From: Blasia pusilla
Taxonomy: Eukaryota
DNA: 64,000 bases
Direction of reading: 5' to 3'
Assembly: GCA_050084515.1 (NCBI GenBank)
Contig: CM114271.1
Span: 47,678,001 to 47,742,000 of the forward strand
Under the pieces are notes generated by a model, which was not told the origin of the DNA, searched no databases, and saw nothing but the letters and a program-made list of their open reading frames with translations. Position 1 is the first letter of the stretch. Each line of letters starts with the position of its first letter. Of this stretch, positions 2,055 through 53,863 are shown one piece after another. A program made the translations under genes and the position numbers.

Positions 2055-2865
2055 CAAGGGGAAGGAAAGGTTGCAAGAACTTACCTTTTGCCAAGGACTG
2101 TCAACAGAGGCGAACTGTTGCTTGATGCGGCCAGGTGCACCGATTCAAAATAGAGTTGACCGGCTCTGGGTTTCTGTCACTATCACTCATTGCACTGAAC
2201 GACCGCTCTCTACAGACACAGTCGCCATGGATAAAAGCGCTCGGTTCCTATAATTCGTTGTTTCTTGGCAACTTCGTACACTACACGATCGGGAGCGACC
2301 TTGGTCACCTCACTAGAGCACGCACCAGAGAGAGGAAAGAAAGAAAGGAAAAAATGACGACGACGGGAAGCACCTTGAGGAAGAATCGAGGCTATGATTC
2401 AAAAATTATCTGCAATGCAGCAGCAGACGTACTTAGATCCAAGGCGACAAGTAGCAAATTTGCTGTAGTGAAATTGTAAGTAACAAACAAGACCCTACAC
2501 TTTTGACATTCCAACAAAGAATTGGGGAGCGACCAAGAGAATGAGCGACAGAATCAAAGACGAGCCGAAATGAGACTCCGTCGTTTCTTAGCGCACGAAG
2601 CGTGAAATCCCTGCCCGCATGATAACTCGATCGATCAAAGGAGACCCCACATCCAGATCAAACACAGTGAAAATCGGAACATGGACATCATCGAGCAGTG
2701 AGCGCAACGACACGAAGAACAGGAGAATGAAAATGAGCACGAGAAAAAGAGGAAACGAGCCGGATAATTATCGACAAAAACAAGCAGACCCCTTAAGCTC
2801 GCTTCCCAAAGCCCAAAATCGGGTTTAGGCCACATGATAAGTCGTTCCCCTTTAACCTCGCTTCC

Positions 2866-4059
2866 TGTAATGTATAAGTGTTTCTATTTTACAGTCGATT
2901 TAGTAAGTTCGATCCCCAAGAGGATCATTGTTTGATGAAAAGAGAGTTCGGAATTACAATTCTGTTATAATAGTTTTATGTAACTGTGTGTGATTTATAT
3001 TCAATGTCTTATCAATATCTTCTGATCTTTCTTAGTACCAAAGGACCTGTTCTCGATGCTCTCTAGTGGAATTGACAGCATGTTTAGGTAGATTTTCCTC
3101 TTGACATCAAGAAATCTCACAGAGATCTTAACACAAAAGCTGGCTTCTCCTACTTTCGGAACTTAATCCGTCTCGGCATGTTACTCTTTGTCAAACAGAT
3201 TTCTTACAAATCAGGTTGATTATTTCACTGATGAGGAAGGTTTGCATGATTCACTCTTCACTCTCCAGACCCAAAAAGAATACTCAGACATAAGCATCGC
3301 ACATCAGAATGAATGAATGATTGATTTACTACTCCATCAAGAACGAGAAAGCTTCAAAGTGTATACAAGCTCGAGAGGGTACTACTCTCTTGCTCGGACC
3401 ATTCCTACAACATAAGGACTTCGTAAGAGAATGATGATTATGGCTTCTGCCTTGCTTCTTAAATATTCGCTGGAATGGAAGTGATCCAAAGATTCGAAAC
3501 GTTCTTGATGAAGCTAGTGTCTCTTCACTATTTCTAACTACCTAGATCTATGGTTCTCTTAGCTTTTCCTACGATTCTTGTGAATCCGCAGTACAAAAGT
3601 GTCCTAACTACCAATTTGATACAAAGGGTCGCGCCCTTTCCTAGTCTAACTATTTTAATATGTGTCTCTTGAAATCACAGTCCTTCTTAGCTTCGCTTTG
3701 TTGGACTTCAGTAGGACGAAGTACTCCATGCTTCGTTCTTATCTCCTGTGCTTCGCGCTTCGTTAAAGAGCGAAGTACTTCTTTCTTCTTTTCTTCGTGA
3801 TGCTTCGTTATGTAGCAAAGCACTTCAAAAACAAAGCTTCGTACATCTTCGTTGAGCTTCTTGAGACTTCGTTATTGCGTTTTCCTCTCCTCTAAGGCAA
3901 ATCCTTGATCTTCCATCTCTCTGCCTTGTCCCAGGAGCTTCGTGATTCACTTATTCTTCCTCATAATAATAAATAATCATAATCAAAATCATAATATACA
4001 AGAGTCTTCGTTGAATAAAAAGATATATTCTTCAAGATTACAAAATTGCGGGTATCACA
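2866..4059. mobile_element. Solo LTR, family B (~1.2 kb)
   Basis: TGTAA...TCACA ends with perfect 5-bp TSD CTTCC (2861-2865 and 4060-4064); reverse complement of 10311-11538. Confidence 0.92.
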
Positions 4060-6492
4060 CTTCCCGAAAGCTAGATCCGAACCCAAACCTGAAATCCGCG
4101 AAGTCAAAAATTTGTTGAAATCCCTAAATGCTACTATCAAAGAATGAACTAGAGAACGAATCGAATGGCAGGAGCGGAAACGAGGGAACAAAAGAAAGAA
4201 TGAATCGAATGCAAAGCGGCGGAAACGAGTGAATAGGAGAACGAACGAATCGATTGTGATGAAACGAATAGAAATGGAAGAACATGAGAACGAAATAAGA
4301 GACAGCGAAGAGCAGAACCGAGACCCTCTCGCATTTGCACGCCAACCCTAAGAAGAGCGCATCGCGATAGACCGAATTTCACCTCTGCCCATCATCCGTC
4401 AGTAATCTACCCTCCACCCCCGTCCGTCGTGTGTCTACCATCCGCCCGTCGTCCATCCGTTGTCATTGTCCATCCGGAGTCAAACTGCCATCCGTTTGGC
4501 GTCCATCCGTCCTCGACAACCGCGTCCATCCTTCATCCGCCACCCGATATCCAGATACTGCGGAGCCTAAATCCCAGCCAAGGCGCTTGGCTCGAAGCCC
4601 TAGTCTAAGCCCTAGGCTACACGGTCTTAAAAGCTAGACCGCGGCAATCTAAGGCCTTCGCATACGCACGGCAATCGAGCCTACTTGACCGCGGAAGACG
4701 TTGTGATTAACAAGAGGATACTAATCATGAAGACGAATGAGGGGTCTTACCATGCTCCACACAAATCAGTTTTTTTTCTTTGTCAATAGTGGGAAACATT
4801 TTGATTAATTAATTATAAGTAATTGAATTTATATTATCGGTGATCTTAGGTGTATAATCTACATTATAATGGGCAACCTGATATATACAACAAGACAAAA
4901 TAATGGGAGAAGAAGAAAAAAAATACGAACATGTTTCATTTTTTTTTCCTTTTGAGTCACGTAAGATAGGTAGATACTTGATAGTTTTATTAGTTTATGT
5001 TATAATAGGTGCTCCTAAGTATATAATAAGGAAAAATAATAGGAGAATTAGAAAAAATAAAAATAATTTTTTTCCCTTAATTCATGTTAGATGGGAAAGT
5101 AAAATGAATTTTAACAGAGAAGGAGTAGATATTATTTAGATTTTATGGAAGGATGGAATTATTTAGGGGAGTGGAATGTCATTTAAATTTTAATTGAGGA
5201 GTGGAATTACTTACACGAGCGCAATGTTATTACTCTTCTAATATTAAAAAAAATAGAAATTATGTTTAAAATTTGAAAATTTTTTATTTTTTATAAAAAA
5301 TCATATTAATTCACATTTCATATTTTGGGAAAGGAAAATAAATTTGAATGGAACAAGGAAATGATTTCATTAGTGAAGATTAACTTATAAATTAGTGAGT
5401 GGATGTTATTTTGGTGGGAAGAGTGGAAGGGGAAGAATAGGTCTTTTTATGGAGGAGTGAAATTATTCAAGAGAGTTGGGTATTATTTAAATGTGAATTT
5501 TTATTACTCTTTCAAGATTTAAAAAATTGAAAATTATACTTAAATTTTTAAATGAATTTTTTCCTAAATTATTAGAAATCATTCTCGTGCACAAACACTG
5601 GAATGCTATCTAGTCTCTAATAAGACAAGAGAAATAAAAACACCGTTTATAGAAGGTGCCGTGAAGGAGACTTTTCCTCATAATATTGAACTCCAGTTTC
5701 ATATTTTTATTAATGCTCTTTTTTATTTATTCACCGTATGGGAAGATCACTTTGTGTGTTTATAAATGCTATTTATTGTTTTAGGGAGTTCTCTTTTCCA
5801 TTCTTCCCAAAGCAGGGTAATTCTAGTGAAGTAAAATATTTATACATGCATTGATTTAGTAAGTCGCAATAGTAACAAGTTACTATTATGTCTTTTAAAT
5901 GCCTTAAAATTTTGGTTTTTCCATTTTCGGCCTATACGATGGTTTAAATTACCTCCTAAAATGATAATTAACTTTTAAAGTTATTAAGTTATTCTCATTT
6001 AAATCAATTTCAAGTAATCCCATTGGCTCAAAAGACGAACGATCCTACTCGATAAACCTCACCTTAGGAATTATGAGGGTAACCTGAGAGCATCAGATGG
6101 ATTGAGAGGTTGGCTTTGGGGTTTTGCTATCTCCTTTAATGGAATAATATACCTCTCTCTCAAATCCATCTCTTTGTTGTATATAGTTGACAATAAGATC
6201 ATATCATTATCTTTTCAAAGAAAAAAACTCTTCATCAAACATGTGATCTTTATCAAAGTCCTCATTTTTTTGGAGACCACTTCTTGTAGTTGTTTCTAAT
6301 CCACTCTTCCTCCTTCCTCACCTTGTTATATATTTAAATCTTCTCTTCCAAATCGTGGTTCCACAAGTAAGCTAGAGATTCACTTGTTTCCTCCTCACTT
6401 AGAAAATCCTTCATGAAATAACGGATGGTCTCCTCTTCAATCCTATTTAAACTCGCCTCTAGCTACTAGTTTTTTTCTTTACTAATTCTATC

Positions 6493-7348
6493 CACTAGTA
6501 GAAAATAGGCCATTTTGAACCCATATGTTTGTGACTCGTGTTATCAAGAGTCATTTGAACTACTTGTAGTTACTCCTAAACAAATTTAGTAACCCCTAAA
6601 TTACTTACAAGATAATGGAGTCACATTTAGTTACTACCATAAACTTAGAGATTGGGGGTAACCTTAGGATCAAGATGGAGAGCCTCATCACTACTAAAAG
6701 GAATATTATGTTTTTAGCATTTGGAAATTGATAACTTAGTCTGAAAAAAGTAGTTTTACAACTGTCGTGGCAAACATTGCCAACATGTCACAAGGTAGTT
6801 GTAAACCACAACTAGGATGGACTACAAAAAATATGGCATTTTTTCCTTAACAAAAAAATTTATGTCTTGGTGTATAATTTTATATTAATTTGAAAGAATG
6901 GTATGTCTTATGTAAGTTTGGAGACATGCCTATGATCTCAAAGAAAGGTTGTGGGTTTAATTCATTAGAACAAATCTTGGTTTTTATGACTGACTCATAT
7001 GACTTATGTTAGTCATACATGTCCACAGATGACTGACAATGGATGATGACTCATGGAGTCATAAAAGCCTAGTCATGTACCATGCCATGACTAGAGTCAT
7101 TTTGGGATAACTCTAGTCATTATTAACAATGACTGACATGTCATCAAGCAACGTATGACAGAATGTAGTCATATATCTGATTGCTATGTCAGCATATGAT
7201 ATGGAAATGACTTGAAGAAAACAAATGATGTGTTGTAACATGGCAATGATAAATTGTGACTTAGTCATATTCATCATTTGGATTGGTCAAAATGACTTAC
7301 TTATGATCTATGACTGAGTCATATCCATCACTTAGATGGTCAAAATGA
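6493..7348. repeat. CACTA left terminus and subterminal repeats
   Basis: CACTA TIR followed by many direct and inverted ATGACT/AGTCAT motifs, densest at 6985-7345. Confidence 0.8.
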
Positions 7349-9398
7349 TGTCACGTCTTTTAGGATAGATCGGTGAGATCTAGTAGAGCGCCTTTGTAAG
7401 TAGTGGAGGACAGGCTCAATAGGTCAAGGGTGACCATTTGAGGCCCCGGGAAGCCTAAGAGAGCAAGTCTCCCCTTCGTTTTGGCTCATTTGGAGCCATA
7501 TTGAGAAACTTACTATTTTAAGAAAGTACCATTTTGAGTATATGATTGACTTTCTATTTTTGGTAAATTGGCCCTTGACCTCCTACATTAGGTCAAGAGC
7601 CAAGGAGGTGACTTGGGAGCATAGGTTACCATGGAGAGAGCTTGGGAGAGGGGAGGGATATACCTCAAGGAGAGAGAGCTTGAGAGCTCATTCTTTCTTT
7701 GTTGAACTTCTTGGCATAAGGCGGCGGAACTATGGTCCCTTGCCTTGTGAGTGTAACCCAAGTAGTGGGTTTGCTTTGACATGAGAGAAAGTGCACACCT
7801 TTGAGAGCTATGGTGTGAAATGGTGTAGAGAGAGATTGGATCTTACTTTACAAAGAGAGAATGAGAGAGCTTCATGGGGGAGCTCGTTGATCACTCGCTG
7901 TTTTTGGAGGTTGGGGACCGTGTTCCCTGTTTAGCGGCTCATGGGAGTGCTCACTGGAGCAAGGGCTGCTTTGATTGTTCTTTGCATTTGCCAATTTTTT
8001 GTGTGGAAGAGTGGCGTGCAGAAGCGCTGCCCAATTTCTAGTAGGGATTGATTATGGGGGTGGGTGGCCACATGCCGGCGCTCTCGGGAGCATTATGTAG
8101 CTTGCTGATTTGTATTTTTACAGGTTTTATATTTTCGTTGGGAGAAATCAGCGTTGCCAAATTTTGTGTAGGAGAAAGAGACATTGGGCTTTACGAAAAT
8201 CCCCATCTGTTTTTATTGGAATGTCTGATTCTAAATATTTTTTTACGCTGTTGTAGATCGTGAAGCTGTGCAACAAATAGTGCGCAATTTGGAGTTGCGA
8301 GCAAAAAATTATGGTCAATCTTGCAAAACTGCCATTACTAGGAAAATTTTAGGGTTAAATTGTTCAAACCCTAAACTAGCCGCCACGCCAGCGGTGGCCG
8401 TCGCCGTCATAGTCACCGTCAACGATCCGCCATCGACGGTCAACCATCATCGTCAACGGTCAACGGTCATGGTCACCGGTCGGCCATCACGATCAACGGT
8501 CAATCGTCACCGTTCCACCGTCCGTTGTCTACCCTTTGGTTGCCATTGCGGCCATTACGGAGTTGAGGGTCTTCCACGACGTTCCTTGATTCTCTGACTT
8601 GCGTTGCCACCACGTATTTTGTTTTGGCCGCCACCGTCATCGCAATTTCGTCATCAACTAGTGATCGCTGGTCACCCCGGGTTATGGTGTTTGAGTTTTC
8701 GTTTCATGTTGCTATCTTGTGATTGGTAGCCGCTCGACGACGATCAAGAATTGTGTCGTGATGCCGTAGCCGCAACGCGTTGCCAATTGCTGCGCCGTGC
8801 TGCTCGTGGCCACACCGCACCGTCTCGATCACGGAGCCGCTCCTTCACTAAGGAGCAGAGCATGTGAATTTTTGGTTGAGGAGGGTATGTCGTCGAATGC
8901 CGCCCTTGGCGGCATACCCTCCTCATTCCCCATTCCCGAGTGCCGTGCCGTCTGTAGCCGCTCCTTGCCGCCACTGCCATACTGGACCGCTCGACCTGTC
9001 ACCGCACATCGAGGAGGTTTGAGCAGCGTCAGTACAAGAGGAGTAGGACTTGCTGATTGGAGGAGTTGTCTTCACAACCGAGTTGGGTCGAGATTTTCTG
9101 TTGCCGAGGAGCGACATCGACATAATTGTCAAGTTACAGATTGTGCTCTCTAGTGGTTTGTGTTGATGCTAGGAGCATCGATGATGTATGGGTTTAGGGG
9201 ACATAGACCTGTGTGGGATGTCTAGAGTTGAGGGTAGGTTATCGATGAGATGATAGCGTGGTCGATTTTCCGCACCACGCCGCGTGTTGCCGCACGTTAC
9301 ACGTCTCGGGGAGGGAGAGTGTAGATCGAGTGCTGCATGTTTGGGATGAGTGATTGAGGGATTACTCGCGAGGTTGAGAGTGATCGGGTGAGAGGGGC

Positions 9399-12300
9399 AT
9401 GAGGGTCATCACGGCGTCCATTCGGGACTTTGAGAGGCGAGGTGGTGAACCTGAGAGTAGCTCTAGAGGTTTTACGCAGAGTCGCGCGAGGTTCCAAGGA
9501 TCTCCACGTGAGGGACCACCTCGACCTCCTTATGTGTCATCATCAGACGAGGGGGAGGATGTAGAGGAGTTTGTGAGTACATCGTCATACATTGTGAGTG
9601 GTTCTACCAGTTGGGCGTACAAGATGGACGACCGGGGTAGAGGTCCGGGTAGGTTTTCAGATGCAGTAGGCACGATTTCATAGCAGAGTTTCGAAGTTGG
9701 TACGACTCCCAACGGGCCAAGAACTCTAGAGAGTTGAACCCATTTATAGCATGGAGCGGTATGTTCCAGCATTTAGAGGGGGCGCCCATGGACGATTACC
9801 ATGAGTTTTCCCACATATATGACCCAAGAGATTGAGGCATGGTGACTCTACTATGATCCACACTATATGTCATGGACGGAGCCGTTCCCAGATGAGGAGG
9901 AGGAGCCAGGAGAGGCTACTTCCTCTTCCCCTAGTGACGTTTTAGGAGGGGTCACTCGCATTGGAGAAGTTGAACCATCTAGTCGAGTTCATCCCAGGTT
10001 CAACCTCATGGTTGAGTTTTTCGCTGAGTTGAGACCGCAACTTTTCTGTCCGTAACCAAGGGTTACGGACAGAGAAGTTGCGGAGCATCCACGACTTCCA
10101 GAGGTGCCCGGGTGAGAGTTTGCGTGAGGCTTACACTTGTTTGCGTCGGTTGATCAACGTCACTCAGGGGGTGACAAAGGCTCGGGCTATCCAGTCATGG
10201 TACGCGATGCTGGACCGGACACTGCGGACACGAGTATGGGACAAGGTGCTTCTTATGAACACCTCCCCTATGTTGAGAGATGTTTTTAGGACCTCCGAGA
10301 ACATTGAGCGTGTGATACCCACAATTTTGTACTTTTGAAGAAATATATCTTTTTATTCAACAAAGACTCTTATACATTATGATTTTGATTATTATTTATT
10401 ATTATGAGGAGGAATGAGTAAGATTAAAGTGAATCAAGAAGCTCCAAGGACAAGGCAGAGAGATAGAAAATCAAGGATTTGCCTAAGAGGAGAGGAGAAT
10501 AAAATAACGAAGTCTCAAGACTCGGCAAGAAGCTTCGGAACGTCAACGAAGCTCAATGAAGCTCTGTCTACGAAGTGCTTTGCTCTATAACAAACCATAA
10601 TAAAGCAGGAAGAAGAAGAGAAAGAAGTACTTCGCTCTTGTACGAAGCGCGAAGCACCTTCAACAAGAACGAAGAATGGAGTGCTTCATCCTCAAGAAGT
10701 CCAGCGAAGCGAAGGTAAGAATGATTGTGATTTCAAGCGACACACCGTTAGAACAGTTAGACTAGGAAAGGGCGCGACCCTTTGTATCAGATAGATAGTT
10801 AGGACAGTTTTGTTTTTCGGATTCATAGGGATCGTACGAAAAGCTAAGAGAACCATAGATCTAGGTAGTTACAAATGCTGAAAAGACACCAGCTTCATCA
10901 AGAACGCTTCGAATCTTTGGATCACTCCTACTCCAGCGAGTATTTAAGAAGCAAGACAGAAGCCACAATCATCATTCTCTTACGAAGTCCTCATGCTGTA
11001 GGAATGGTCCGAGCAAGGGAGTAGTACCCTCTTGAGCTTGTATACACTTTGAAGCTTTTTCATTCTTGATGGAGTAGTAAAGCAATCATTCATTCATTCT
11101 GATGTGCGATGCTTATGTCTGAGTATTCTTTTTGGGTCTGCAGAGTGAAGAGTGAATCAGACGAACCTTTCTCATCAATGAAATAATCAACATGAATTGT
11201 AGGAAATATGTTTGACAGAGAGTAGCCTGCCGAGACGGATTGAGTTCCGAAAGTAGGAGAAGCCAGCTTTCATGTTGAGGTCTATGTGAGATTTCTTGAT
11301 ATCAAGAGGACATCTACCTGAGCATGCTGTCAATTCCACTAGAGAGAATTGAGAAAAGACCCCTTGGTACTAAGAAAGATCCGAAGATATTGATAAGACA
11401 TTGAATATAACTCATACATATTTAAATACAACTATTACAACATAATTGTAATTTCGAACTCTCTATTCATCAAACAATGATCCTCTTGGGGATCGAACTT
11501 AGTAAACGATTATAAAATAGAAACTCTTATACATTACAGAGCGCAACATGGCGGAGGAGAGTGTAGCCACCATGGGTTTTGGGCGAGAGCAGTGACGATT
11601 GGCCGCACCACTTGTGCAGCAACATGGACTCCGAGATATGTCAACTGTGGCACCATGAGCTCAGGGAGGATACCAAGAGGCCGTGCCACAGAGACCTACA
11701 CCTTCATATGCGGCTCAACAACAACCACCTACTATTACTTGTTGATCATGTGGTGGAGCCCATCATTGGCGCGATTGCACTTGTCAGGGTCATGGACGTG
11801 TGCCTCAGCATGGAGGAGGAGATGGTGCTACACCAGGAGGTTATCAGTGTGACTCTTGTCAGAGGTATGGTCATACATGCGCCTGGTGTTTTAGTTTACA
11901 TCTTGAGTTACGTCCGGACCGAGGGCCAGAGAGGGCACTAGAGCGAGTAGTTGATCTAGGTGGGCTAGAGATCGTGCACTAGGTGATCCCGTTGGGGGAC
12001 GAGGAGCTGGAGTTGCTCGAGAGGGTGGTGGAGCTGCCCATGGAGGAGGTAGAGTACCACCACCTAGACGCGCCGAGGGAGATGCCGGACATGAGGCCGA
12101 GATGGCTGCTGAGATACAACATCTACAAGAGCAGATTGCCGCTATGGCATTGACATCATATGGAGCAGCCAGAGATATGGAGGATCCTGGTTGGATGTGC
12201 GAAGTTGCCCAGATGGAGGCCGCCACAATTGTGAGACGTGGAGCAGCTGGAGAGTTGGATCCACAATGAGGGGAAGCCAGAAAACAGACTAGACTTCCTT

Positions 12301-12590
12301 ATTGGTGTGCAGGGAAGGCGATGGGAGAAGCGAGTGCGACAACTCCTATTGTTGATGCTCAAGAGGGGCATGTGTCGAGCACGTTGTTGCGGGCGGCCAC
12401 TATTGTGTACCACACTCCTTTATTTTTTGCTTTTGATGTTATGACGTTGGGGGGTACGCCCACTCAGGGTTTTTGGCTAGCCGCTTCACTATGTGAGCAC
12501 GGAGTTGGAGTTCTTGCATCACATTCAGAGGTGATTGTAGAGGAGGTGATGGACCTGCCCTTGGAACGGATGCTCGGGCCGTCCACGTGA
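9399..12590 (+). pseudogene. gag: Degraded retrotransposon gag, split by a solo LTR
   Basis: 10078-10310 'FQRCPGESLREAYTCLRRL' resembles retrotransposon Gag; 'YQCDSCQRYGHTCAWC' is a Cx2Cx4Hx4C knuckle (ORF 11800-11982); multiple stops and frameshifts. Confidence 0.75.
10311..11538. mobile_element. Solo LTR, family B, inserted into gag
   Basis: TGTGA...TTACA ends with perfect TSD GAGCG (10306-10310 and 11539-11543). Confidence 0.93.
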
Positions 12591-12617
12591 GATTCATGGC
12601 AGGCTACGGCTGCTAGG

Positions 12618-13070
12618 ATGGCGGAGATGCCCGCTAGACCCGCGATAGAGCGTGCCATGGCTTCTCCTAGTGTTGTGTTGCTAGAAAACCGAGGAGAGGT
12701 CTTCCAGTTGGTGAGTCCCGGAGGTAGAGCTTTTAGTCCCCAGCGCGTCTTGTTGGATTCAGGAGCGCAACCCTTGATGTTGGGGAAAGCGTCATTCAGA
12801 GGATTGGGCTTGACAAGAGCCGATGTGGAGCGTTGTCCATTCCAGATACATACATCCTTGGGTGGAGCAAGTACCATACAGTATATCACCTTACAAGAGG
12901 TCGTGGTGAGGATTCGCCCGACACATCCTACAGATGAGTCCGTGGTGCGAGCCAAGGCGATAGTGACTGATGTAGAGTCCTACGACGTCTTGGTTGGTGT
13001 AGCAGTGTTATACCCGATGAGGTTTTCCCTGGATTACTGGGAGGAGTCAGTGTCCTACAGACCAGGATAG
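12618..13070 (+). pseudogene. Retroviral-type aspartic protease domain of pol
   Basis: Catalytic motif VLLDSGAQ and C-terminal YDVLVG motif; ORF ends at an internal TAG but the same frame continues into ORF 13122. Confidence 0.85.
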
Positions 13071-13469
13071 CACTGAGGTGATGGGCACCTTAGCTCATTA
13101 CTCGTTCGATTCACAGGTGCAGTGATCGAGCGACGGGCAGGAGAGGTGGCGACCTTAGCAACATTTAGTAGTATCATCACTTGGCCTAGTGATTTGATTG
13201 AGGGACATGTCCATGCAGAGGATACTCCAATTCTTGAAATTTCTATGGAGAGGAGTGTTATGGTAGCCGCATCATTCCATGGAGGAGAGGTGCCGTTGTG
13301 GGGCTCGAATGAGGAGCTTCAACGAATGGCAGATGAGCACGTGCAGACCGCGTGGAGCGAGGCGTTTGCACCGGAGCGTGACGGGTCTGAGGAACCTGAG
13401 ATAGCAAGGAGTGCTATGATGACACCCTTGGATATCACACCCATTGTGTGGAGTATCCCGGAGAAGGGT

Positions 13470-13948
13470 ATTCAAGTATTTGATCTCTATGGAGGGATTA
13501 GCACGGGGTTAGCTGCTGTTTTGCAGGCAGGAGTGCGAGTGCAACAGTATCTATATATGGAGAGTGATGATGTTGCGAGGCGTGTCTCACTACAACATGT
13601 GCCGCAGTTACGCCTACGTTTCCCGAATTATTTTTTGCGTCCGCAGTACAAGGATACCAAAGTTCCCTACCGAGGGATATTTCGTTGTTGGGGGCGTAGG
13701 ACTTAGAGCGGGTAGGGACCATTGATTTGTTCATTTTTGGTTGGCCATGTCAGGGCCAATTGAGTGCTAGACAAGGCAGCGGGTTGGCTAACACTCGGTC
13801 CAGGTTGTTTTGGGAGATGTTGAGGGTCTTACGGCAGTTGCAGGAGCACCAGTCTCGTTCTCCAGCCTAAATTCTGGAGAATGTGCCGATCTTAGGAGAC
13901 TCCAAGTCACGGGAAGTGATGAGTGCTCATCAGGTGCGTGCCTGGATT
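13470..13948 (+). pseudogene. C5-cytosine DNA methyltransferase domain inside retrotransposon pol (truncated)
   Basis: Motif I 'IQVFDLYGGISTG' (13470); motif II 'YLYMESDDVAR'; frameshift near 13622; motif III 'LPRDIS'; motif IV 'IDLFIFGWPCQG' (PCQ at 13745-13753); motif V-like 'GLANTRSRLFWEMLRVL'; motif VI 'ILENV' (ENV at 13877-13885). Two in-frame stops. Confidence 0.9.
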
Positions 13949-14907
13949 GCTTTCTCCTTCTGAAAATTTCTCTGACGTAAGCTCATTCTCCAGATTCTGA
14001 ATCCGAGTCTCATTCCTCGTTTCATACTGATTCTTCAGAATGTTCCATGCCTCAGCAGTAGTGGTTGTATGTTGAATGAGAGTCATGATAGAATCAGTTA
14101 CATTCGTGATAATCGCATATAGAGCATCAACGTTTATGTGTTTCCATGCCAGCAATACAACAGGATCGATATCACCAGATGAAGATGAACATGCAAAACT
14201 CAAAGTAGCTTATGGATTCGAATAAATCCCTGTGGCCGTCTCCCAGATCTCAAATGATTTGAGGACAGTTCTGGTTTTGAACTTCCACAATATATAGTTA
14301 GACCCATCCAACTTCCCTTCACCCAACAGAGGAGCGCAAGCACAAAGTGACGAAGAAGTCGCCATCTCTCAAGATTTTGTGCAAACACACTAGATCGCCA
14401 AATACAAAATACTGGAAAACCTATGGCTCTAATACCATGTGAGAAAATAGAAAGTGATGAAATCACTAAAATCTTTACAAAACTTAGAGATACAAAGTGG
14501 CCTAATCCATTTGTGCGCTTACAGAAGAGCTTCGATGGAACCCGAACATGGAGATAACTCGACATATGAGAATTCGCTACCGCTATGGCTCCCGACTATT
14601 TCACTACTCGGGAAACAAGGGTTTTTACCTATTTTTCTTCAGTTCTATTAATAGAAAAAATTTTCCTCGGATCCTCGCGTCGTCTTGGCATACGAAGAGG
14701 TGTGCCCCCGGACCCCCGGGGGCACAGCTCTTCGTATGCCAATATAGGGTTAGATAATCCTAGTAACGCTACTCCTGAAACCACCTACGTCATATTACTA
14801 TGATTCTTTCGACGTCTAAGTCGGAACCATCAATCTAGACTTCTCCCCATACAAGGGAGCCGATTACATTAATGGTGCTCAGAGAAGTGGATGTTGAGAA
14901 TCCAACA
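13949..14907 (-). mobile_element. Copia family A fragment: 5' LTR (14438-14907), PBS (14426-14437) and gag N-terminus
   Basis: LTR TGTTGGATTC...TTCTCACA on the minus strand, then PBS TGGTATTAGAGC, then gag 'AEAWNILKNQYETRNETRIQNLENELTSEKF'; homologous to 35770-36570. Confidence 0.9.
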
Positions 14908-15879
14908 GGACATTGCCGAGCTGACTAGCCAAACACAACTGCTTCAAGAAAAGCAGGACTCTAAGAATTCTCTTTTTGTACAACTCAAGAATCCAACAAA
15001 CCACACATTTCTTCTAGTGCCAGAAATCTCCATAATTTAGAAAAATGACTTATAACATAGGATGCAATAACCACATGCTTTCACCTTGGTGAAGGTCCAA
15101 CCTTGGAGAGGTATAAATCTTGATAACTTCACAGATCCCACCTAATATAAATAATCCTCCATCATTTATAATACCGAAGTATAAATGTTTAGGATATCTA
15201 GAAATATTATCATGAATCTAATGCACCCTCAAAATTTAATAGAAAAGTAATTTTACCTTCCCCGTGAGTTTCTTATTGCTCCCAGATTTCACATCGCTAT
15301 CATGTTCGATGCTCGCAGCTAGAATTTTGTTGCCTTGTACTCTTCCTAAACGCCTTTTTTTTCAGTGATGAGTGCTCCACAAGGATGGAATCTCCACATT
15401 TTGAGAGTTAGTCTTGAACTAATGGTGTCAAAGACCAGAATTGCAATATTTAGTGTGCATGAAAATCATACCAATCAGGATGTAATTAAAAAAGGAAAGA
15501 CACAAACCGGTTGGGGTTGAACCTCCAATTTTTTCTGATGGGGAAGATACCTTCACTTCAGAAGTTTTCCTCACTATCAAACAAGCAAGAACATGCATTT
15601 AGTACAACCATATTCAAATATATATACTTCTGTACAATCAGCAAAGATTTTATAATCAACCTTCAACACTTACCACTCCGCATTGGTCGATCATGCCCAT
15701 TCGACTCTCTCGACATCTCTTGGTAAGAACCATCACCAATTTCTGCAACTTTCACCTTCTCTACCTCAACACCAACACGGCTTGCTATATACAAAACATG
15801 GAAATCTGATTAGCTATTCAAGAATACCTTGAATGATCCAAAATGAAACCATGCAAGTGATCATGTCTTACCCTCCTCT

Positions 15880-18800
15880 TCATCAGGACTGCGGTCTCTT
15901 GATGCAGATGGTCGCGTTATCTTCTTCTCTGAAAGCTTGTTGATCATTTCAACAAGCATGGAGAACGCCTCATTCTGTTGTTTTTGATGTTTTTCCAACT
16001 TCTACTCAATTAGAGTTTGGTTCTTGGCCATCTTCTCTTCCAATTGCAATTGGTTCTTCTCCAATTTGTCCTCAAGTTGGCCTTTAATGACATCCATATC
16101 TTCACTCCACTTTTTCTCTACCTTCAAGAGTTGAGTAGATATGCTTGATTTCACACTCCACTGAAATCATACATGCACACTTTGATCAGTCTCACATCCT
16201 TATTAGTTTTTTAACTCCCAAAACAACACAAGACAAATTTATCACTAAAGGGACAAGCCAAGATTATGTTATTCCCACATTGAGATGGAATGATTACTCA
16301 CTCATGAGGCTCCACTAAATGAGTATCACTCGCTGCTGGTGTTTCCATAGCGTGTTCTTTAGGACTCATTCCTACTCCGGCACCCCTCCCCTATTTTATT
16401 CAACTCTCAAGGTTAGTTAATTTTTTGGACATATTATACAGGTATGCTCAAACTTATTGATCACAACATGGAGAAATCAGATGAAATACATGAAACCGGT
16501 GAAATAACTTACTAAACTATCCTCAGAGGCACTAGCCCCCATGCCACTCTGAGTGATACCTACATTGCTTGGTACAGCGGATTCACCTCGGCCCTAACAT
16601 CAACTCCACAAAACAATTGACAGTTAGTAATCATGACATAAAGACAGACAGAAGAAAAGGATTTGGAAGACACAAGGTTGCTAAAGAGAACTTACAGAGA
16701 ATCCCTCTAAACATCCCCCACTGCTGTGATTTAAAGTGACAACCTTGGATCTTCCGTTCACCATCTTTTGAGCCTTCAACATATCCTCTTTTGAAAGCCA
16801 ATAATCTACCAAACGTGCCCAGACTTTTTCCTTTGCATCAGGGTGGCACAAGACTTCCGCATTTTTCCCATTGGCCACCCATTATGCTTTCATGCTGGAC
16901 TGTTTAGTTTTCAATAGTTGCGCACATTTCTTGTTCCCTAAACATGGCACACCAACATAGGTGTAGGCACTCTCAACATGATTACAAACTGTTGCCACAC
17001 TAATAGTGTCGTGCCTATTCATCTCGACACATGATAAGTCAAGATAACGCATGGTCCATACCTTTAGGTCATTCAACCAGGGTTCATAACTGGGCACTTT
17101 CGTCTTTAGAACCCCTCGTGGACAATAATTCGCGTGTGGGCAGTAAGTTTTGCTCCTTGCGTTGGGCCATATCGCGGGTCTATAAGTCTCTCTTGGTTCT
17201 ACTTCTCCTCGCACTTGCCCTATCACATGGACATATATTAGAAGAAAACCCAACATTTAAACTTGAGATGTTCCAACATATGAATGCATTTGACCAAAAT
17301 CTTTGATGATAGCTTTTTGAATATTCAAAGTTGGCAGTCATGCCAACCGTGGGAGATCACTATATATGGACCTACCCCCACCATAATTTGTGGGATTGGA
17401 AGGATTAGGGGCCATGAAAGACTAATTGTTACTTTACTGCAAATGTACACTTGTCCCAACAAATCCCGATGGCCCATCAAAAAATGTGGAGTCAGAACCT
17501 TCTCCAACAGTTGGATATGAGGGAGGAGGAGGGTATGAAACTCCATCCTATTACAATCAGGCAACAAGCAACAAGGGTTATTTATTGCCAGTTTTCTCCA
17601 ATATCAAGTGGAGAAAATTGAGCAAACAACTCCCAAAAAATACTTTGCATAATAAAGTATCTGCCATCCTCACTTTCTCTATAAGAACTCATATCATCTA
17701 TTTAAAAATTTCATATGCCTGGGGATCAATGAGAGCATACACTTGGTCGTGCCTATGGTGGACCATGTTGGTTGGTAGGCTAATATTGTTGACCTCCCAT
17801 CAATTGGTAAGGCTAATTAGTAGGAGCCCATTGGTGTTCTTCCATTGGGGGTTGTGACCAATTCATGCCACCAACCCATTGCTGTTGAACAGTCAAGCTC
17901 ATTGGAGGAGTTTGTTGACCCTATGGTGGTGGAGGTGGGGCGGAGGAAGGGGGTTGTGGCATACCGTAAGATCCACCTTGTAAACTATTCATCATTGATG
18001 GCTTACAATCAGACGGATATTACCCCACTCTCATCTCGCTATTCCAACGACTCCCACTTTCTGACCATGTGTAATTAGGACACATAGGATACTGCCAACC
18101 CATTTGCGGCCTCATACGTGAACATGGCTCTAGGGGTTTAGAATTTTCTTGAGAATCGAAGGATTCTCGTCCCCTAGAACCTGAAGGCTGTCAAAATGCA
18201 ATAAGTGTCAATGATTTCTACAACTCATGGACATTCTATTCATCACCATGATTAGAGGAATCCTATTTTCAATCATGAAAAAGGAAGTGGCAGATTTAAA
18301 GTAGTTACCGTCTCAACCTGTTTGGAATGGGTTGTTGGTCCAAAGTCTTGGTTCTCAAAAGAAGGATAAGGTGTGCCCTCATCATCATCAGATTGGAAAT
18401 CCATATGTTCAGGTGGCATATAATCAGGATCTCTCACAGTATAATCCTTTGTGCTTTCAATCATATTAGGTAAGCTCTCCTTTGATCTCAACCTTGAACT
18501 TCGTCGCACTTCAACACCCTCTGCCACTACTACTCTAGAAAGGAAGGCTTCCCTGGTTGCCTTTGAAGGTTTGAGCCTAGCTTTCCAAACAAGCATTTCA
18601 CCATTAATCATCTACAAGTAATCAAATATTTTTTTGTTTTCTATATACACGTCAAGTATAAGGAAGAAAAAAAATCATGATAGAAATTCAATTCAGAGAA
18701 TGCACATTATGCAAATAGGAGAACTCCTTACTCTGCAAGAAAATCACCAAGTAAGAATGCTTGTCTTTTTTTTTTTCCTCTTATCTTCCTTGCACGTTCC

Positions 18801-20042: not shown

Positions 20043-23000
20043 CTACATCCAATTCACATGTGTCATCTTCAGAAAACTCATCGGTGGATAGATGAACAAC
20101 CGACACATTGTTGACACTTTTCTATGTGTTGTCACTAATTCCTCAACAGTCAACTCTATAGCGCCAATTGTGTTCACCAATGGCATCCTATGAGGCAATG
20201 TTTTAGAATCTTGATCAAGGCCAATAGAATGTCCCTTGTCAAGATTACCCCCATCGTAGATATCATAAATTACTCTGGGAGATCTAGCTTCTTTCCTCAA
20301 TACTACCTTCCATCCGCTCCCCTTGTTAGCATCTCCAAATATTACTTGCTCCACTTGAGATGGGAAAACAAAAGGTTGGTGATTCAAAGGTTCACAAGAT
20401 CTAAGGTTGACAAGTAAGAAGCCTTCACGGTCTTGCTTCATGGATGGCGTAGGTGACTCCCAATCTGCCCTAACCCATCTTCCTCTCATTAAGATGACAC
20501 GCTGGTCTACAATCCCATAATAAAGTGCAATAATATTGACAATAGCTCCTACATATGAATAAGCACTATTGTGGGAGTCATTCTTCTCATCCACAAATAT
20601 TGCTCCAATTCCACTATCATAAGTAGAGTATGCACTAGATCCACCCTCTCCCTCTATCCTAAAGTGGTTGCCATGAGCCTTCATAGACTTGTAAGAGAGT
20701 ACTTTTGATTGAGAAGGAATTGATAAGGCTAATGCCTCTTCATCCACCTTCCCGTTATTCTCCCTAGCATCTTGGAGGATAGCTGGTTGGATCCACTCTT
20801 TAAAAGGAATTGATGCCCTCTTTGAATCATATCTCTTGGCAGAAAAAACATTATGGGACCAGTGGACTAGGTGATCCGTTAGCTTTTCTGAAATAGGCAG
20901 GGTTCAGTGATGCTAAAAACTCACTCTACAAATTGAGAACACATGTAATTAAATAATACATGTGCCATGTAACCATAGACTCGGTATTGTGTAAAACATA
21001 GTGGTGCGCCAAGATCATCAGATCTCTTGAAAGTCGTACTTGCACTCTTGCACCTTCTAGCTCCTTGCTTGCCACTCCTTCTTCACCCTCATCCTAAATT
21101 CGGGTCCTTACACCCTCAAATCTCCTCATATACTCAGTCACAAATCCCAGAGCCTCGTCTTTAATATACCCCTCAGCCATGTAACCCTCGGGCCGAGCTT
21201 TTGATCTCACATATTTCTTCAAAAAACCCATGTATCTCTCCATGGGATACGTCCATCGGCAAGCTAAAGACCCACATAAGTCCAATTCTTCAATTACATG
21301 GATCAAAAGATGTGTCATCACATCAAAAAAGGAAGGTGGGAAATGCATCTCCAAGAGACATAAGGTTATCCCTGTTTCCTTGTGTAGTTGATCGTAGTAT
21401 GTACGATCATACACTTACAACATAGTAACCTGAAAATTTTACTCAAGCGCGTGATCGTTGAACGAACAGGAGCTTTCATTAGGCCACGAAGGGAAAAAGG
21501 AAGGATGTGGTGAATGAGCACATGATAATCATGTGACTTCATGTTACCTAGATTCTTTTTAACCACATGCTTTCTTAGCTCACCACTATATCCTATGGGC
21601 ACTTTCAAGGATTGAATCCTAGATAAGAATGCGGCCACCTTTTGAGGTGATAAAACATAATCACATTGAGGTTTCACTAGGTCTTGAGGTCTACTTGGAT
21701 GGGATTGTAATCACAAGTGAGCTCTTATTCCGGGAGCTTCCATATCTCTTCTAACCTTCACAGTATCCTTCATCCCTATCAAGGTCTTCACCAGATTCTT
21801 TGCAATATTCTTCTCCACGTGCATAAGATCTAGGGTATGTCGTATCAAAAGATGCTACCATCAAGTAAAGGAAATATATGTTCATCATAAATAAAAAAAT
21901 ACTTGCTCCAAAATATATCACAAGCATGAGTAAAATAAAATCACATTGGTGTGGATACTCTCCAATATGGCAAATCATACAATAGAGACCTTCTCTTCAC
22001 CCCTGTCCTTTTGTAGGGATCACTTGGACCATCCTCTCGACCTCCACCCCCATCATATTTTTTTTTTCCTTTGCCCATCTAAGAATCTCGTCTGCTGTAA
22101 TCCTTGGAGCTGCATCCCTAGACTCATCCCTTCCATTGAAGTGGGAACCATAGGCTTGTCCTCTCCATACATGATCATGGGAAAGGTGTCTATGATGACA
22201 ACCAAAAATAGGCTTCCCACATTGTTTGGAGAAATCCGAATCTACATAAGGACCACATATTATACACGCAAGTTTCCCACCATGGCTTTGCCTTGAGATT
22301 GTGCCATATGCTGGATAATCATTTATTGTCCACAAGATCATAGCTCTGAACAGAAAGCTTGAGGATCCATGTGGTCTACGTACATGATGGAATTATACCC
22401 CATTCCACAACTCATGTAATTCATCCTCCAAGGGGGCCAAGTAAGTGTTAATGTTCTCTCTATTGACATTCTCCTTACCGGGCATAATAAGAGCCAACAT
22501 CATAAATAACTTTTTGGTTTCAAGCCAAGGTGGCAAATTGTAGTTCACCAATAAGACCGGCGAGGTCGACCAAGAGCTTGCCTTGTCAAGATATGGATTC
22601 ACCCCATCAAGGACTAAACCAAACCTACAATTTCTACTCTCCACAAAAAAATCAAAGTACAAATGATCTATGTGATACCATGCCTTGCTATCCTCTGCAT
22701 GTCTAACCATACCATCCTTGCTCTTTTTTTCAGAAGCCCAATTCAACAACTTTGACAAAGCCTGACATCTATACATACGCTGCATCCTAGGGATTATAGG
22801 GAAATGTCTCAAGACCATTTGGTACTAAGGACCTCCCAACTTGCTTGAACCTAGAATTTCCACTCTTGGGACACTCATCATTATCAGCCAAATCCCCACA
22901 AAAAAGGACACAACCTTTAAGACATGCATGGATAGAGTTGTAACTCATTCCAAACTTGTTGATAAGTTTTTTGGCAGCATAGTATGACGGTGGGACATGA

Positions 23001-23742
23001 TTATCCGATGGGAGTGCCATCTTACCTAAAAGTTTCAAAATCTCATCGATTGCAATATTGGGCACTCCATGGGTAGCACCAACGTTGAAGTTAAGCATAA
23101 TAAAACCAAGTAAGGAAGTCTTAGGTCTTGGGAAGAGCGGCTTGCATGCTGCAGCAAGTTCATCAAAATTTGAGGGAATGTTTTGATCCTCGCCTTCATT
23201 GGGATGGTTTACATCCTCTCGCCACCTTCATTGATCGAGCCATCTTTGTCATAGAGCTGATCATATTGTCTAAATATGTCATTGAGCATCTGAGGGACAT
23301 CAATGTTGTCATCCAAGTTTGCATTGTTAATGTAAGGTAATTCCTGCACCGGCTTGGATTGCATGATAAGCTCACTCTCCCTTCTGTCATGGTTATCCTA
23401 ACTCATGAACCATTCCTCATCCGAGGAGTTCCACTCTTCCCTAGTTTTAGGGATGAAACAAAAATGAGATCGTCCATTTTTTCTCAAGTGTTCTTCTACC
23501 TTGCCAAATCCCAAGGTAGTCCCACCCTTGCACTCACTACAAGGACATCTGGCCCTCTTCCTTCCTAATGTGCGGGACCTAGCACATTCCCTTTGCCACA
23601 ACTTGTAGTCATGAGCTTGGATTCTATGGGGATCGCTCAAATCCAATCGGACATGAACAAACATTGGTGGTATCATAGCCCCTACGTACGTCAAGTTAAT
23701 AAGAACATAAGTAAATACTTGCATGAGGAAAGTGTTGGACAA
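20043..23742 (-). pseudogene. CACTA transposase (TnpD/Tnp2-type; Transposase_21, DUF4218- and DUF4216-like regions)
   Basis: 'RCPCSEC', 'YNSIHACLKGCVLF', 'LRHFPIIPRMQRMY', 'GLVLDGVNPY', 'YNLPPW', 'LWTINDYPAYG', 'MKSHDYHV', 'FPPSFFDVMTHL', 'WTYPMERYMG', 'QPFVFPSQVEQV'; frameshifts and stops. Confidence 0.95.

Positions 23743-31629: not shown

Positions 31630-35700
<4,071 letters not shown>

Positions 35701-51238: not shown

Positions 51239-51242
<4 letters not shown>

Positions 51243-53682: not shown

Positions 53683-53863
<181 letters not shown>

What the first reader, a model, noticed from the sequence alone, without database searches (positions are those of the whole stretch)
12618..13948. 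LTR retrotransposon carrying a cytosine-5 DNA methyltransferase within pol, in an apparent land-plant genome
Seen in sequence: gag with zinc knuckle, then aspartic protease (LLDSGA), then in the same reading frame a linker and C5-MTase motif I (FDLYGG); after one frameshift come motif III (PRDIS), catalytic motif IV (GWPCQG) and motif VI (ILENV), in canonical order and without introns. The six-frame ORF track misses the catalytic half. Established knowledge: DNMT-encoding retrotransposons were reported in Symbiodinium dinoflagellates and the charophyte Klebsormidium (de Mendoza et al. 2018). Inference: this is a related or independent capture in an embryophyte-like genome, where the element may methylate its own cDNA or LTRs. 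This copy is dead and truncated.
Basis: partly seen in the sequence, partly recalled or inferred. Interest (0 to 1): 0.9.

Follow-up and report, generated by a model that had tools for sequence, protein, structure and literature searches.

The report
Dead liverwort retroelement carrying DNA methyltransferase
This is a broken, cut-off copy of a jumping-gene family that carries its own DNA-methylating enzyme, a kind known from algae but here found, abundant and transcribed, in a liverwort-like land plant.

Summary
On the + strand, 9644-13947 is one decayed retroelement copy: gag with two CCHC knuckles, aspartic protease (LLDSGA), a spacer, then the N-terminal half of a C5 DNA methyltransferase (motifs I, IV, VI; PF00145 27.7 bits). 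It is colinear with Marchantia polymorpha proteins. A solo LTR splits gag. The copy has 4 frameshifts and at least 6 stops, and ends at 13947 against a Copia fragment. No RT, RNase H or integrase remains in the window.

The adjacency is a family trait. Relatives in Marchantia, Calypogeia, Closterium, Coleochaete and Klebsormidium have the same protease-spacer-DNMT layout. Full relatives read gag-PR-DNMT-RT-RH-integrase. In metagenome loci, 53 of 57 have DNMT after the protease and the other 4 have traces. The enzyme is DNMT3-type.

In runs labelled with the host species, family DNA depth is about 100-200 times the flank. Strand-biased RNA reads cover gag through DNMT.

It belongs with the Gypsy-DNMT3 elements described in Klebsormidium. 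Presence in land plants was not found in print. What the enzyme does is inferred, not shown.

The parts
8000..9643 (+). Upstream non-coding leader of the same family. The true 5' end lies before 8000 and was not located.
   Evidence: DNA read depth is about 800-1500, as high as over the coding part. Reads run on before 8001. RNA molecules begin at 8144 (12 in X17, 8 in X19). No similarity to related loci at DNA level.
9644..10308 (+). gag, N-terminal part, with two frameshifts (about 9820-9828 and 10034-10057)
   Evidence: tblastn of P0005 residues 15-233 in three frames
10311..11538 (+). Nested solo LTR of another family, with TG..CA ends and the 5-base duplication GAGCG at 10306-10310 and 11539-11543
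   Evidence: Sequence read. Two more copies in the window, 2865-4060 inverted and 56891-57847. 1175 DNA reads and 30 RNA reads join 10305 to 11539, so other copies lack it.
11539..12590 (+). gag C-terminal part with two CCHC knuckles (about 11740-11900) and the stretch before the protease. Frameshift at about 11907; stops at 12267 and 12588.
   Evidence: tblastn of P0005 residues 233-595; translations
12591..13067 (+). Aspartic protease, LLDSGA at 12750-12767
   Evidence: The D, G and A of this motif are nearly invariant in 14 relatives.
13077..13440 (+). Spacer between protease and DNMT
   Evidence: Same frame as the protease. No Pfam family. Largely disordered in the model of relative P0004: residues 236-288 have pLDDT under 50, followed by one confident helix at 296-312. 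dN/dS 0.87 among related copies.
13441..13947 (+). DNMT3-type C5 DNA methyltransferase, N-terminal half: motif I 13479-13496, frameshift about 13619-13625, motif IV 13739-13756, motif VI 13871-13885. Stops at 13697 and 13868. Cut off after 13947.
   Evidence: PF00145 27.7 bits; tblastn 55-66% identity to 10 of 13 Marchantia proteins over 13619-13951; loose ends behind 13947
13948..14907 (-). Not part of the element: Copia fragment that abuts the truncation. It comprises a gag piece, a primer-binding site at 14426-14437 and an LTR at 14438-14907.
   Evidence: RNA strand bias is opposite to that of the DNMT element.

Best explanation
Window 9644-13947 (with a leader starting before 8000) is an old, inactivated, 3'-truncated copy of a retroelement family.

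**What an intact member encodes.** A single polyprotein reads gag, zinc knuckles, aspartic protease, a flexible spacer, a DNMT3-type cytosine-5 DNA methyltransferase, reverse transcriptase, RNase H and a DDE integrase.

**Where the family belongs.** It is in the same lineage as the Gypsy-DNMT3 elements described in the alga Klebsormidium nitens. It also occurs in Closterium, Coleochaete and liverworts. The window's host is most likely a liverwort.

**Shown.** The domain order, the DNMT3 type, conservation of the catalytic residues across the family, high copy number and sense-strand transcripts in runs carrying the host's species label.

**Inferred.**
- The protease releases the methyltransferase from the polyprotein beside the reverse transcriptase.
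- The enzyme then methylates newly made element cDNA, or element DNA at integration, so that new copies enter the genome already marked. I put that specific mechanism at about 0.35.
- After insertion this copy was methylated and decayed by C-to-T changes. It was split by a solo LTR and lost its 3' part in a rearrangement next to a Copia fragment.
For: **Colinearity with Marchantia proteins.** P0005 residues 15-1041 cover the stretch. 16 of 21 hits cover at least 88% of the protease-to-motif-I query.

**Full domain order.**
- P0124 reads zf-CCHC, protease, PF00145, RVT_1, RT_RNaseH, Integrase_H2C2 and rve.
- P0012 has DNMT followed by RT and RNase H.
- 19 of 25 metagenome loci with at least 5 kb after the protease have DNMT, RT, RH and INT. 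Pfam confirms this on L025 and L003.

**Adjacency is general.** 53 of 57 loci with at least 1.5 kb after the protease have DNMT within 2.5 kb. The other 4 have partial DNMT matches.

**DNMT3 type.**
- The best solved-structure sequence hits are DNMT3A, 3B and 3C (25 of 27 hits, best E 1.7e-8).
- All Foldseek hits listed, to rank 48, are DNMT3A, 3B or 3C (E about 1e-17, TM 0.78-0.83 for the catalytic-domain chains).

**Constraint.**
- The motif I F and G, motif II E, motif IV C-Q-G, motif VI E and V, and motif VIII R-x-R are invariant or nearly so in 14 members from liverworts, Closterium and unnamed sources.
- dN/dS for DNMT is 0.57, against 0.87 for the spacer and 0.37 for RT.

**Same lineage as Klebsormidium.** One search gives E 2e-19 with the alignment running from protease to DNMT. 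Closterium gives 31% identity over 621 residues.

**Abundance and transcription.**
- Summed DNA depth is about 1600-2700 over 11471-13873, against about 9-15 over 14942-16000.
- RNA reads show about 10:1 strand bias over gag to DNMT. Some skip the solo LTR and some run on past 13947.

**Decay signature.** Where most DNA reads differ from the window, the window has A or T for the reads' G or C at 298 of 509 places. The reverse holds at 53.
Against: - No enzymatic activity is known for any Gypsy-DNMT3. The Discussion of de Mendoza et al. 2018 offers cDNA methylation only as a hypothesis, and for DIRS-type elements.
- DNMT constraint is weaker than for RT, RH and INT (0.57 against 0.36-0.45). Pairs of copies are not independent, and most copies are dead: only 3 of 30 DNMT segments lack a stop.
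- PF00145 was missed in 3 of 8 Marchantia-group proteins scanned and in the Klebsormidium and Coleochaete proteins.
- No terminal repeat, primer-binding site, RT, RH or integrase of this element is in the window.
- The host's name is coded. Its liverwort identity rests on similarity of two transposon families, which can move between species.
- The laid runs share a species label with the best holder. They are not proven to be the assembled individual.
- The copy-number ratio assumes that the flank 14942-16000 is single-copy.
- The sense reading of the RNA assumes a library in which the first mate reads the strand opposite to the RNA.
- The element tree places liverworts nearer Coleochaete than Closterium, with weak support (89/86) and no root. 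Vertical descent is therefore not shown.
Confidence: 0.9

Rival explanations
1. The methyltransferase domain is retained but does not methylate element DNA. It might act on RNA, serve a structural role in the particle, or be an inactive passenger in liverworts.
For: - dN/dS of DNMT (0.57) is higher than for RT, RH and INT.
- In P0124 and Closterium P0106 the Pro before the catalytic Cys is Glu.
- de Mendoza et al. 2018 (Discussion, read) report that the tested SymbioLINE-Dnmt failed to methylate DNA in yeast, and raise RNA methylation as a possibility.
- Most copies seen are dead (1 open frame of at least 900 aa in 80 loci).
Against: - The catalytic Cys, ENV and RxR residues are conserved across 14 diverged members.
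- The fold and the best sequence matches are DNMT3 DNA methyltransferases, not DNMT2.
- The spacer next to it evolves nearly neutrally (0.87), so the DNMT is under selection of its own.
Confidence: 0.2
2. The protease-DNMT adjacency in this window is a chance juxtaposition: a host DNMT pseudogene or an unrelated fragment next to a gag-protease remnant.
For: The window is a mosaic of broken transposons with nested insertions and rearrangement joints.
Against: - Protease, spacer and motif I are in one frame.
- The same layout, with a homologous spacer, occurs in Marchantia, Calypogeia, Closterium, Coleochaete and Klebsormidium proteins.
- It also occurs in 53 of 57 metagenome loci, and the remaining 4 have partial DNMT matches.
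- DNA and RNA read depth is continuous across the junction.
Confidence: 0.01
3. The contig is algal or a contaminant, so the element is not in a land plant.
For: - The host's name is withheld and no host gene was recognised in the window.
- The family is abundant in charophyte algae.
Against: - The window copy lies in a 100/99 clade holding all 15 named liverwort rows and no named alga.
- An unrelated CACTA transposase in the window has its best named hits in Calypogeia fissa and Riccia sorocarpa (46-49%), then in angiosperms (36-37%).
- Family members lie on chromosome-scale records of Marchantia (27.0 Mb) and Calypogeia (46.8 Mb).
Confidence: 0.05
4. In liverworts the sequences are domesticated host genes derived from a retroelement, not a mobile family.
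For: Marchantia copies are annotated as ordinary hypothetical proteins, some with only gag-protease-DNMT in the model (P0005, 1278 aa).
Against: - At least 13 Marchantia paralogues with very short end branches (0.014-0.17) indicate recent amplification.
- Depth in the host-species run is of the order of a hundred times the flank.
- RT, RH and integrase follow the DNMT.
- Flanking split direct repeats are present.
Confidence: 0.03

Closest known systems
KnitGypsy-Dnmt3 of Klebsormidium nitens (de Mendoza et al. 2018, PMC5890265; passages and Discussion read)
   Same: - An intronless, non-rearranged DNMT3-type domain inside the pol polyprotein of an element with Gypsy domain composition.
- The repeat structure is DIRS-like rather than a plain LTR pair. 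The paper says so, and one search shows split direct repeats in 5 of 5 related loci.
- A K. nitens protein (GAQ93292.1) aligns colinearly from protease into DNMT.
   Different: - The host is a liverwort-like land plant, not a charophyte alga.
- Copy number appears high, whereas the paper says K. nitens has few copies.
- This copy is dead and lacks RT, RH and INT.
- Whether GAQ93292.1 is one of the paper's KnitGypsy-Dnmt3 copies was not checked.
SymbioDIRS-Dnmt3 and SymbioLINE-Dnmt of Symbiodinium (same paper)
   Same: A cytosine methyltransferase encoded inside a retrotransposon.
   Different: Those elements have unrelated backbones (DIRS with tyrosine recombinase; LINE). The family here has a DDE integrase. 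The paper describes the captures as independent.
Host DNMT3 and DRM de novo methyltransferases of plants and animals
   Same: The catalytic fold and motif order match DNMT3A/3B/3C.
   Different: - No PWWP, ADD or plant DUF companion domain was found by Pfam.
- The domain is intronless and is fused between a retroviral-type protease and RT.
- Motif order is not rearranged as in DRM. The only DRM-like chain hit (4onj) is weak, E 0.0026.
Ngaro/PAT-type elements with split direct repeats (DIRS order; recalled, not from a call)
   Same: The terminal arrangement is A1 ... B1-A2-B2. In the related loci it is about 340 bp ... 115-340-115 bp.
   Different: Those elements use a tyrosine recombinase. This family has Integrase_H2C2 plus rve.

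Membership tests
Gypsy-DNMT3 retroelements (KnitGypsy-Dnmt3 type) | DNMT domain lies inside the gag-pol polyprotein reading frame | tested here: met
   In the window, protease, spacer and motif I share a frame. Relatives have single open frames: P0005, P0012, P0124.
Gypsy-DNMT3 retroelements (KnitGypsy-Dnmt3 type) | DNMT is DNMT3-type with unrearranged motif order | tested here: met
   The window has the order I, IV, VI. Relatives match DNMT3A/B/C best by sequence and by fold. No tree including host DNMT3 was made.
Gypsy-DNMT3 retroelements (KnitGypsy-Dnmt3 type) | Gypsy domain order PR-RT-RH-INT with DDE integrase | tested here: inconclusive
   Met in relatives. In the window, RT, RH and INT are absent because the copy is truncated.
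Gypsy-DNMT3 retroelements (KnitGypsy-Dnmt3 type) | DIRS-like (split direct) terminal repeats | tested here: inconclusive
   Present in 5 of 5 related metagenome loci examined. Not testable in the window, whose 3' end is missing and whose 5' end was not located.
Gypsy-DNMT3 retroelements (KnitGypsy-Dnmt3 type) | Sequence homology to the Klebsormidium element across the protease-DNMT junction | tested here: met
   P0005 against K. nitens GAQ93292.1: one alignment from protease to just before motif IV, E 2e-19. The window query hit that protein in its protease part.
C-5 cytosine DNA methyltransferase (Pfam PF00145) | Score above the curated cut-off, with motif IV Pro-Cys and motif VI ENV | tested here: met
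   27.7 bits against cut-off 22 on 13700-13867. GWPCQG and ILENV were read. Only about the first third of the profile survives in the window.
Canonical LTR retrotransposon (Ty3/Gypsy) | Pair of long terminal repeats with a primer-binding site next to the 5' LTR | tested here: not met
   - No repeat of the element's ends occurs in the window.
- The recalled initiator-tRNA primer-site motif matches only next to Copia LTRs.
- Relatives show split direct repeats instead.
DIRS order | Tyrosine recombinase instead of DDE integrase | tested here: not met
   Relatives carry Integrase_H2C2 and rve.
Host DNMT3 gene or pseudogene | Multi-exon gene with companion domain, not linked to retroelement genes | tested here: not met
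   The match is colinear and intronless, and is fused to gag-protease. No companion domain was found in Pfam.

The most novel reading that the evidence does not exclude
An ancient streptophyte lineage of integrase-bearing retroelements with split direct repeats and their own DNMT3 did not die out at the move to land. It persists in liverworts, including the genetic model Marchantia polymorpha, in numbers of the order of a hundred copies. It is still transcribed and may still be mobile, and its enzyme is active, so that part of de novo DNA methylation in these plants could come from a transposon-encoded DNMT3.
Probability: 0.35. Interest if true: 0.75.

Novelty: new member of a known kind. Interest (0 to 1): 0.6.

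Why it matters
What a retrotransposon gains from carrying a cytosine methyltransferase has been open since 2018. Cytosine methylation is the mark hosts use to silence transposons. The only described plant-lineage case was in an alga.

The same family is found here in liverworts. Young-looking copies occur in Marchantia polymorpha, and the window's host species has sense-strand transcripts. This moves the question into plants with genetics, methylome maps and transformation.

It also bears on annotation. Extra 'DNMT' hits and 'hypothetical proteins' in liverwort genomes may be transposon genes.

Tried and rejected
- **Own genome.** Not held.
- **Earlier findings.** Nothing on this genome.
- **Pfam misses.** No hit on the 209-aa spacer plus motif I piece or on the 13792-13977 frame. 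No zf-CCHC hit on the window knuckle piece.
- **Rest of the element in the window.** tblastn of 21 relatives found nothing outside 9639-13960 at E 1e-3.
- **RNA genes.** Rfam at gathering threshold found 0 matches and tRNA search found 0 genes. No host marker was found.
- **CACTA open frame 20043-20900.** A search for longer relatives found none. The Transposase_21 read-through worked instead.
- **Metagenome scans.** The first, with P0012, gave 91 pattern matches but no confirmed relative. The second, with alignment A1, gave 80 loci.
- **DNA similarity upstream.** None between window 5500-9700 and the 80 loci, so the 5' end could not be set.
- **Primer-binding motif.** The motif, recalled from memory, matched 4 places against 5.0 expected by chance. 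Only the two next to Copia LTRs are meaningful.
- **ESM Atlas look-up of P0004.** Best score 0.79, below the level the tool calls informative.
- **Sequencing-run search.** No RNA holder was listed. The best holders carry 0.18-0.20 of the sampled words.
- **Literature.** Seven full-text searches and passages read in PMC12344493, PMC11982613, PMC6453930, PMC11244446, PMC8616336 and bioRxiv 10.64898/2026.05.21.726589 found no report of DNMT-encoding retroelements in liverworts. PMC5890265 has 0 mentions of Marchantia or liverwort in its main text. Supplements were not seen. The DNMT trees in the supplements of PMC12344493 and PMC5890265 could already contain such sequences.
- **Considered and rejected.** DIRS membership, because relatives have an integrase and no tyrosine recombinase. 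A host DNMT3 pseudogene. Chance juxtaposition.
Full report
**1. What is in the window**

On the + strand the six-frame view and translations show the following, in order.

- Two CCHC knuckles at about 11740-11900. By eye the first carries a stop.
- An open frame 12591-13067 with LLDSGA at 12750-12767.
- In the same frame, after stops at 13068 and 13074, a 120-residue spacer.
- C5-methyltransferase motif I, FDLYGG, at 13479-13496.
- After a frameshift at about 13619-13625: PRDIS (13670-13684), GWPCQG (13739-13756) and, after stops at 13697 and 13868, ILENV (13871-13885).

Pfam gives PF00145 at 27.7 bits on 13700-13867 (cut-off 22, E 2.4e-6). It gives only sub-threshold protease matches, and nothing for the spacer plus motif I piece.

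**2. The true extent of the copy**

tblastn of relatives shows one colinear copy. For Marchantia protein P0005 (1278 aa):

| P0005 residues | Window coordinates |
|---|---|
| 15-233 | 9644-10308 |
| 233-354 | 11539-11910 |
| 354-932 | 11907-13625 |
| 931-1041 | 13619-13951 |

- The gap 10311-11538 is a nested solo LTR of another family. It has TG..CA ends and the 5-base duplication GAGCG. Two more copies lie in the window.
- The copy has four frameshifts (about 9820-9828, 10034-10057, 11907, 13619-13625). It has stops at 12267, 12588, 13068, 13074, 13697 and 13868.
- It ends at 13947 against a minus-strand Copia fragment. That fragment comprises a gag piece, a primer-binding-site match at 14426-14437 and an LTR at 14438-14907.
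- Nothing resembling the rest of the DNMT, or RT, RNase H or integrase of this family, lies elsewhere in the window at E 1e-3.

**3. The adjacency is a family trait**

*Word-indexed search.* The query ran from the protease to motif I and looked for longer proteins. It gave 21 hits: 13 Marchantia polymorpha, 1 Calypogeia fissa and 7 unnamed. Sixteen cover at least 88% of the query at 40-51% identity.

*Exhaustive HMMER search.* It gave 370 hits at E up to 1e-3.

*Naming the hits.* I looked up 30 of them and 17 carried names:
- 4 Marchantia
- 2 Calypogeia
- 9 Closterium
- 1 Coleochaete scutata, a transcript covering query residues 2-345
- 1 Klebsormidium nitens

*Domain order.*
- P0124: zf-CCHC, protease, PF00145, RVT_1, RT_RNaseH, Integrase_H2C2, rve.
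- P0012 (Marchantia): DNMT, RVT_1, RNase H.
- PF00145 was detected in 5 of 8 proteins and in 5 of 7.

*Pairwise alignments.*
- P0005 against Closterium P0106: 31% identity over 621 residues from protease to the end of the DNMT.
- P0005 against the Klebsormidium protein: one alignment from protease to just before motif IV, E 2e-19.

*Metagenome loci.* A scan returned 80 loci.
- With strict domain probes, 53 of 57 loci with at least 1.5 kb after the protease have DNMT within 2.5 kb.
- 19 of 25 loci with at least 5 kb have DNMT, RT, RH and INT.
- The four exceptions (L069, L078-L080) still show partial DNMT matches with whole-protein queries.

I found no copy of this gag-protease family without a DNMT trace.

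**4. The enzyme**

- **Sequence.** P0005's DNMT matches DNMT3A, 3B and 3C best among solved structures: 25 of 27 hits, best E 1.7e-8. M.HaeIII (E 0.001) and a DRM-type chain (E 0.0026) lie far behind.
- **Fold.** An AlphaFold model of relative P0004 (22-row alignment, mean pLDDT 75.7) has confident protease (about 80-235) and DNMT (about 340-678) domains. Residues 236-288 of the spacer are disordered. All Foldseek hits listed, to rank 48, are DNMT3A/3B/3C. E is about 1e-17, and TM is 0.78-0.83 for the catalytic-domain chains.
- **Conserved residues.** Fourteen members from liverworts, Closterium and unnamed sources were aligned. The following are invariant or nearly so:
  - motif I F and G
  - motif II E
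  - motif IV C-Q-G
  - motif VI E and V
  - motif VIII R-x-R
- **Selection.** I computed Nei-Gojobori dN/dS among metagenome copies with my own script. Pairs are not independent, and values are inflated by the decay of dead copies.

| Domain | Median dN/dS |
|---|---|
| RH | 0.36 |
| RT | 0.37 |
| gag | 0.41 |
| INT | 0.45 |
| DNMT | 0.57 |
| PR | 0.64 |
| spacer | 0.87 |

The DNMT has been under purifying selection. That selection is weaker than on the replication enzymes, and the spacer is close to neutral.

**5. The host and the family in it**

- **Host identity.** The host's name is coded. An unrelated CACTA transposase remnant in the window (22000-22821, minus strand) has its best named hits in the liverworts Calypogeia fissa (46%) and Riccia sorocarpa (49%). 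Rice and celery follow at 36-37%.
- **Tree.** I built a tree from protease to motif VI with 38 rows and 456 columns.
  - The window copy falls in a 100/99-supported clade of 20 rows: 13 Marchantia, 2 Calypogeia, 4 unnamed and the window.
  - Its nearest row is the unnamed P0175, at 58% identity.
  - A Coleochaete pair is the nearest outside group, with weak support (89/86). Klebsormidium and Closterium lie further out.
  - The tree is unrooted, and several rows have long branches.
- **DNA reads.** I laid one DNA run and three RNA runs carrying the same species label on 8000-16000, at 80% likeness.
  - Summed DNA depth is about 1600-2700 over 11471-13873, about 800-1650 over 8000-10402, and about 9-15 over 14942-16000.
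  - That puts the family at roughly 100-200 copy-equivalents, if that flank is single-copy.
  - Of 81,220 DNA reads laid, 52,485 are under 90% alike and 130 are 99% or more alike. This copy is therefore an old outlier.
- **Private features of this copy.** 1175 DNA reads join 10305 to 11539, so the solo LTR is private to this copy. 641 DNA reads run on behind 13947. By eye their first letters read ..AVFLDAA.., matching the next residues of P0005 (SAVLLDAAR). Other copies therefore continue the DNMT.
- **RNA reads.**
  - Depth is 13-86 on one mate orientation against 0-10 on the other, across 11471-13873. The Copia LTR next door shows the opposite bias.
  - With the usual stranded protocol this means sense transcripts.
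  - RNA reads also skip the solo LTR (30 reads over three runs) and run on past 13947 (30 and 33 reads). They therefore come from other copies.
- **Decay signature.** Where most DNA reads differ from the window, the window has A or T for the reads' G or C at 298 of 509 places, and the reverse at 53. This is the pattern expected from deamination of methylated cytosines in a silenced copy. That reading is inference.

**6. Termini**

No terminal repeat of this element is in the window. Its 5' end lies before 8000 and was not located.

In 5 of 5 related loci examined, the coding region is preceded by one repeat of about 340 bp. It is followed by a 115-340-115 bp arrangement in which the 340-bp unit matches the upstream one and the two 115-bp units match each other.

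This is a split direct repeat. It agrees with the remark of de Mendoza et al. 2018 (Fig. 4 legend, read) that the Klebsormidium element has DIRS-like repeats but Gypsy domains. The relatives carry a DDE integrase, not a tyrosine recombinase. 'LTR retrotransposon' is thus a loose label for this family.

**7. Mechanism**

*Shown:* the domain order, the DNMT3 type, conserved catalytic residues, abundance and transcription.

*Inferred:*
- The protease frees the DNMT from the polyprotein next to RT.
- The DNMT methylates element cDNA, or the element at integration. I give this about 0.35.

The main rival is that it acts on RNA or is not a DNA enzyme in these hosts (about 0.2). No activity data exist for any Gypsy-DNMT3. 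The paper's yeast assay concerned Symbiodinium elements.

**8. Comparison and novelty**

The kind is known. Gypsy-DNMT3 in Klebsormidium was described in PMC5890265, and a 2026 preprint refers to 'streptophytes (Gypsy-DNMT3)'.

Membership is met for the DNMT-in-polyprotein, DNMT3-type and junction-homology features. It is inconclusive for the RT-RH-INT and terminal-repeat features, because the window copy is truncated.

What appears new is the host range. Seven full-text searches and the passages read found no report of such elements in liverworts or any land plant. [quoted passage not shown] Supplements were closed and may hold relevant trees.

I rate it a new member of a known kind, with interest 0.6. 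It is unremarkable as a single dead copy. It is notable because it points to an abundant, transcribed family in land plants, including a genetic model.

Noticed in passing
window 10311-11538; also 2865-4060 (inverted) and 56891-57847: A 1.2-kb LTR family with TG..CA ends. The copy inside gag is a solo LTR with the 5-base duplication GAGCG. The three copies in the window are 86-90% alike.
   Followed up: partly
window 1828-2054, 13999-14907, 24917-25310, 35770-36576, 39698-40117: Five LTR copies, two with an adjoining gag-leader stretch, of one Copia-like family. Initiator-tRNA-type primer sites lie at 14426-14437 (minus) and 36138-36149 (plus). Copia gag and integrase frames lie at 37121-39138 (minus). 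RNA reads cover the LTR at 14408-14941 in the Copia sense.
   Followed up: partly
window 20043-23227, minus strand: CACTA (En/Spm) transposase remnant with Transposase_21 and a weak DUF4216 match. Its nearest named relatives are in the liverworts Calypogeia and Riccia, and the next nearest are in angiosperms.
   Followed up: partly
L011, L018, L029, L009, L026 (metagenome loci): Relatives of the DNMT element end in split direct repeats (about 340 bp ... 115-340-115 bp) although they encode a DDE integrase. This termini-enzyme combination is usually associated with tyrosine-recombinase elements.
   Followed up: partly
window 8000-13947 against reads of run X14: Strong asymmetry of differences: the window has A or T where most family reads have G or C at 298 of 509 places, and the reverse at 53. 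In the RNA runs the reverse classes are two to three times commoner than in the DNA run. This was not explained.
   Followed up: no
window 15392-15510 and 14665-14767: RNA reads in three runs skip 117 and 101 bases here (up to 18 reads a run), while DNA reads do not or hardly do. These may be introns or splice-like joints in transcripts of the flanking low-copy region and the Copia LTR.
   Followed up: no
window 31254-32202, 51220-51300, 53606-54031: Long CT/GA dinucleotide microsatellites, up to about 400 bases. They give spurious long open frames of SL or RE repeats.
   Followed up: no
window 44082-50411: A GC-rich block (about 50% GC) with long open frames that have no Pfam match, and an 81-base direct repeat at 48694-48875 made of short GC-rich hairpin-like units. 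Possibly another decayed DNA transposon.
   Followed up: no
Tree, Marchantia rows: The 13 Marchantia polymorpha copies have very short end branches (0.014-0.17 changes per column). This suggests recent amplification in that model species.
   Followed up: no
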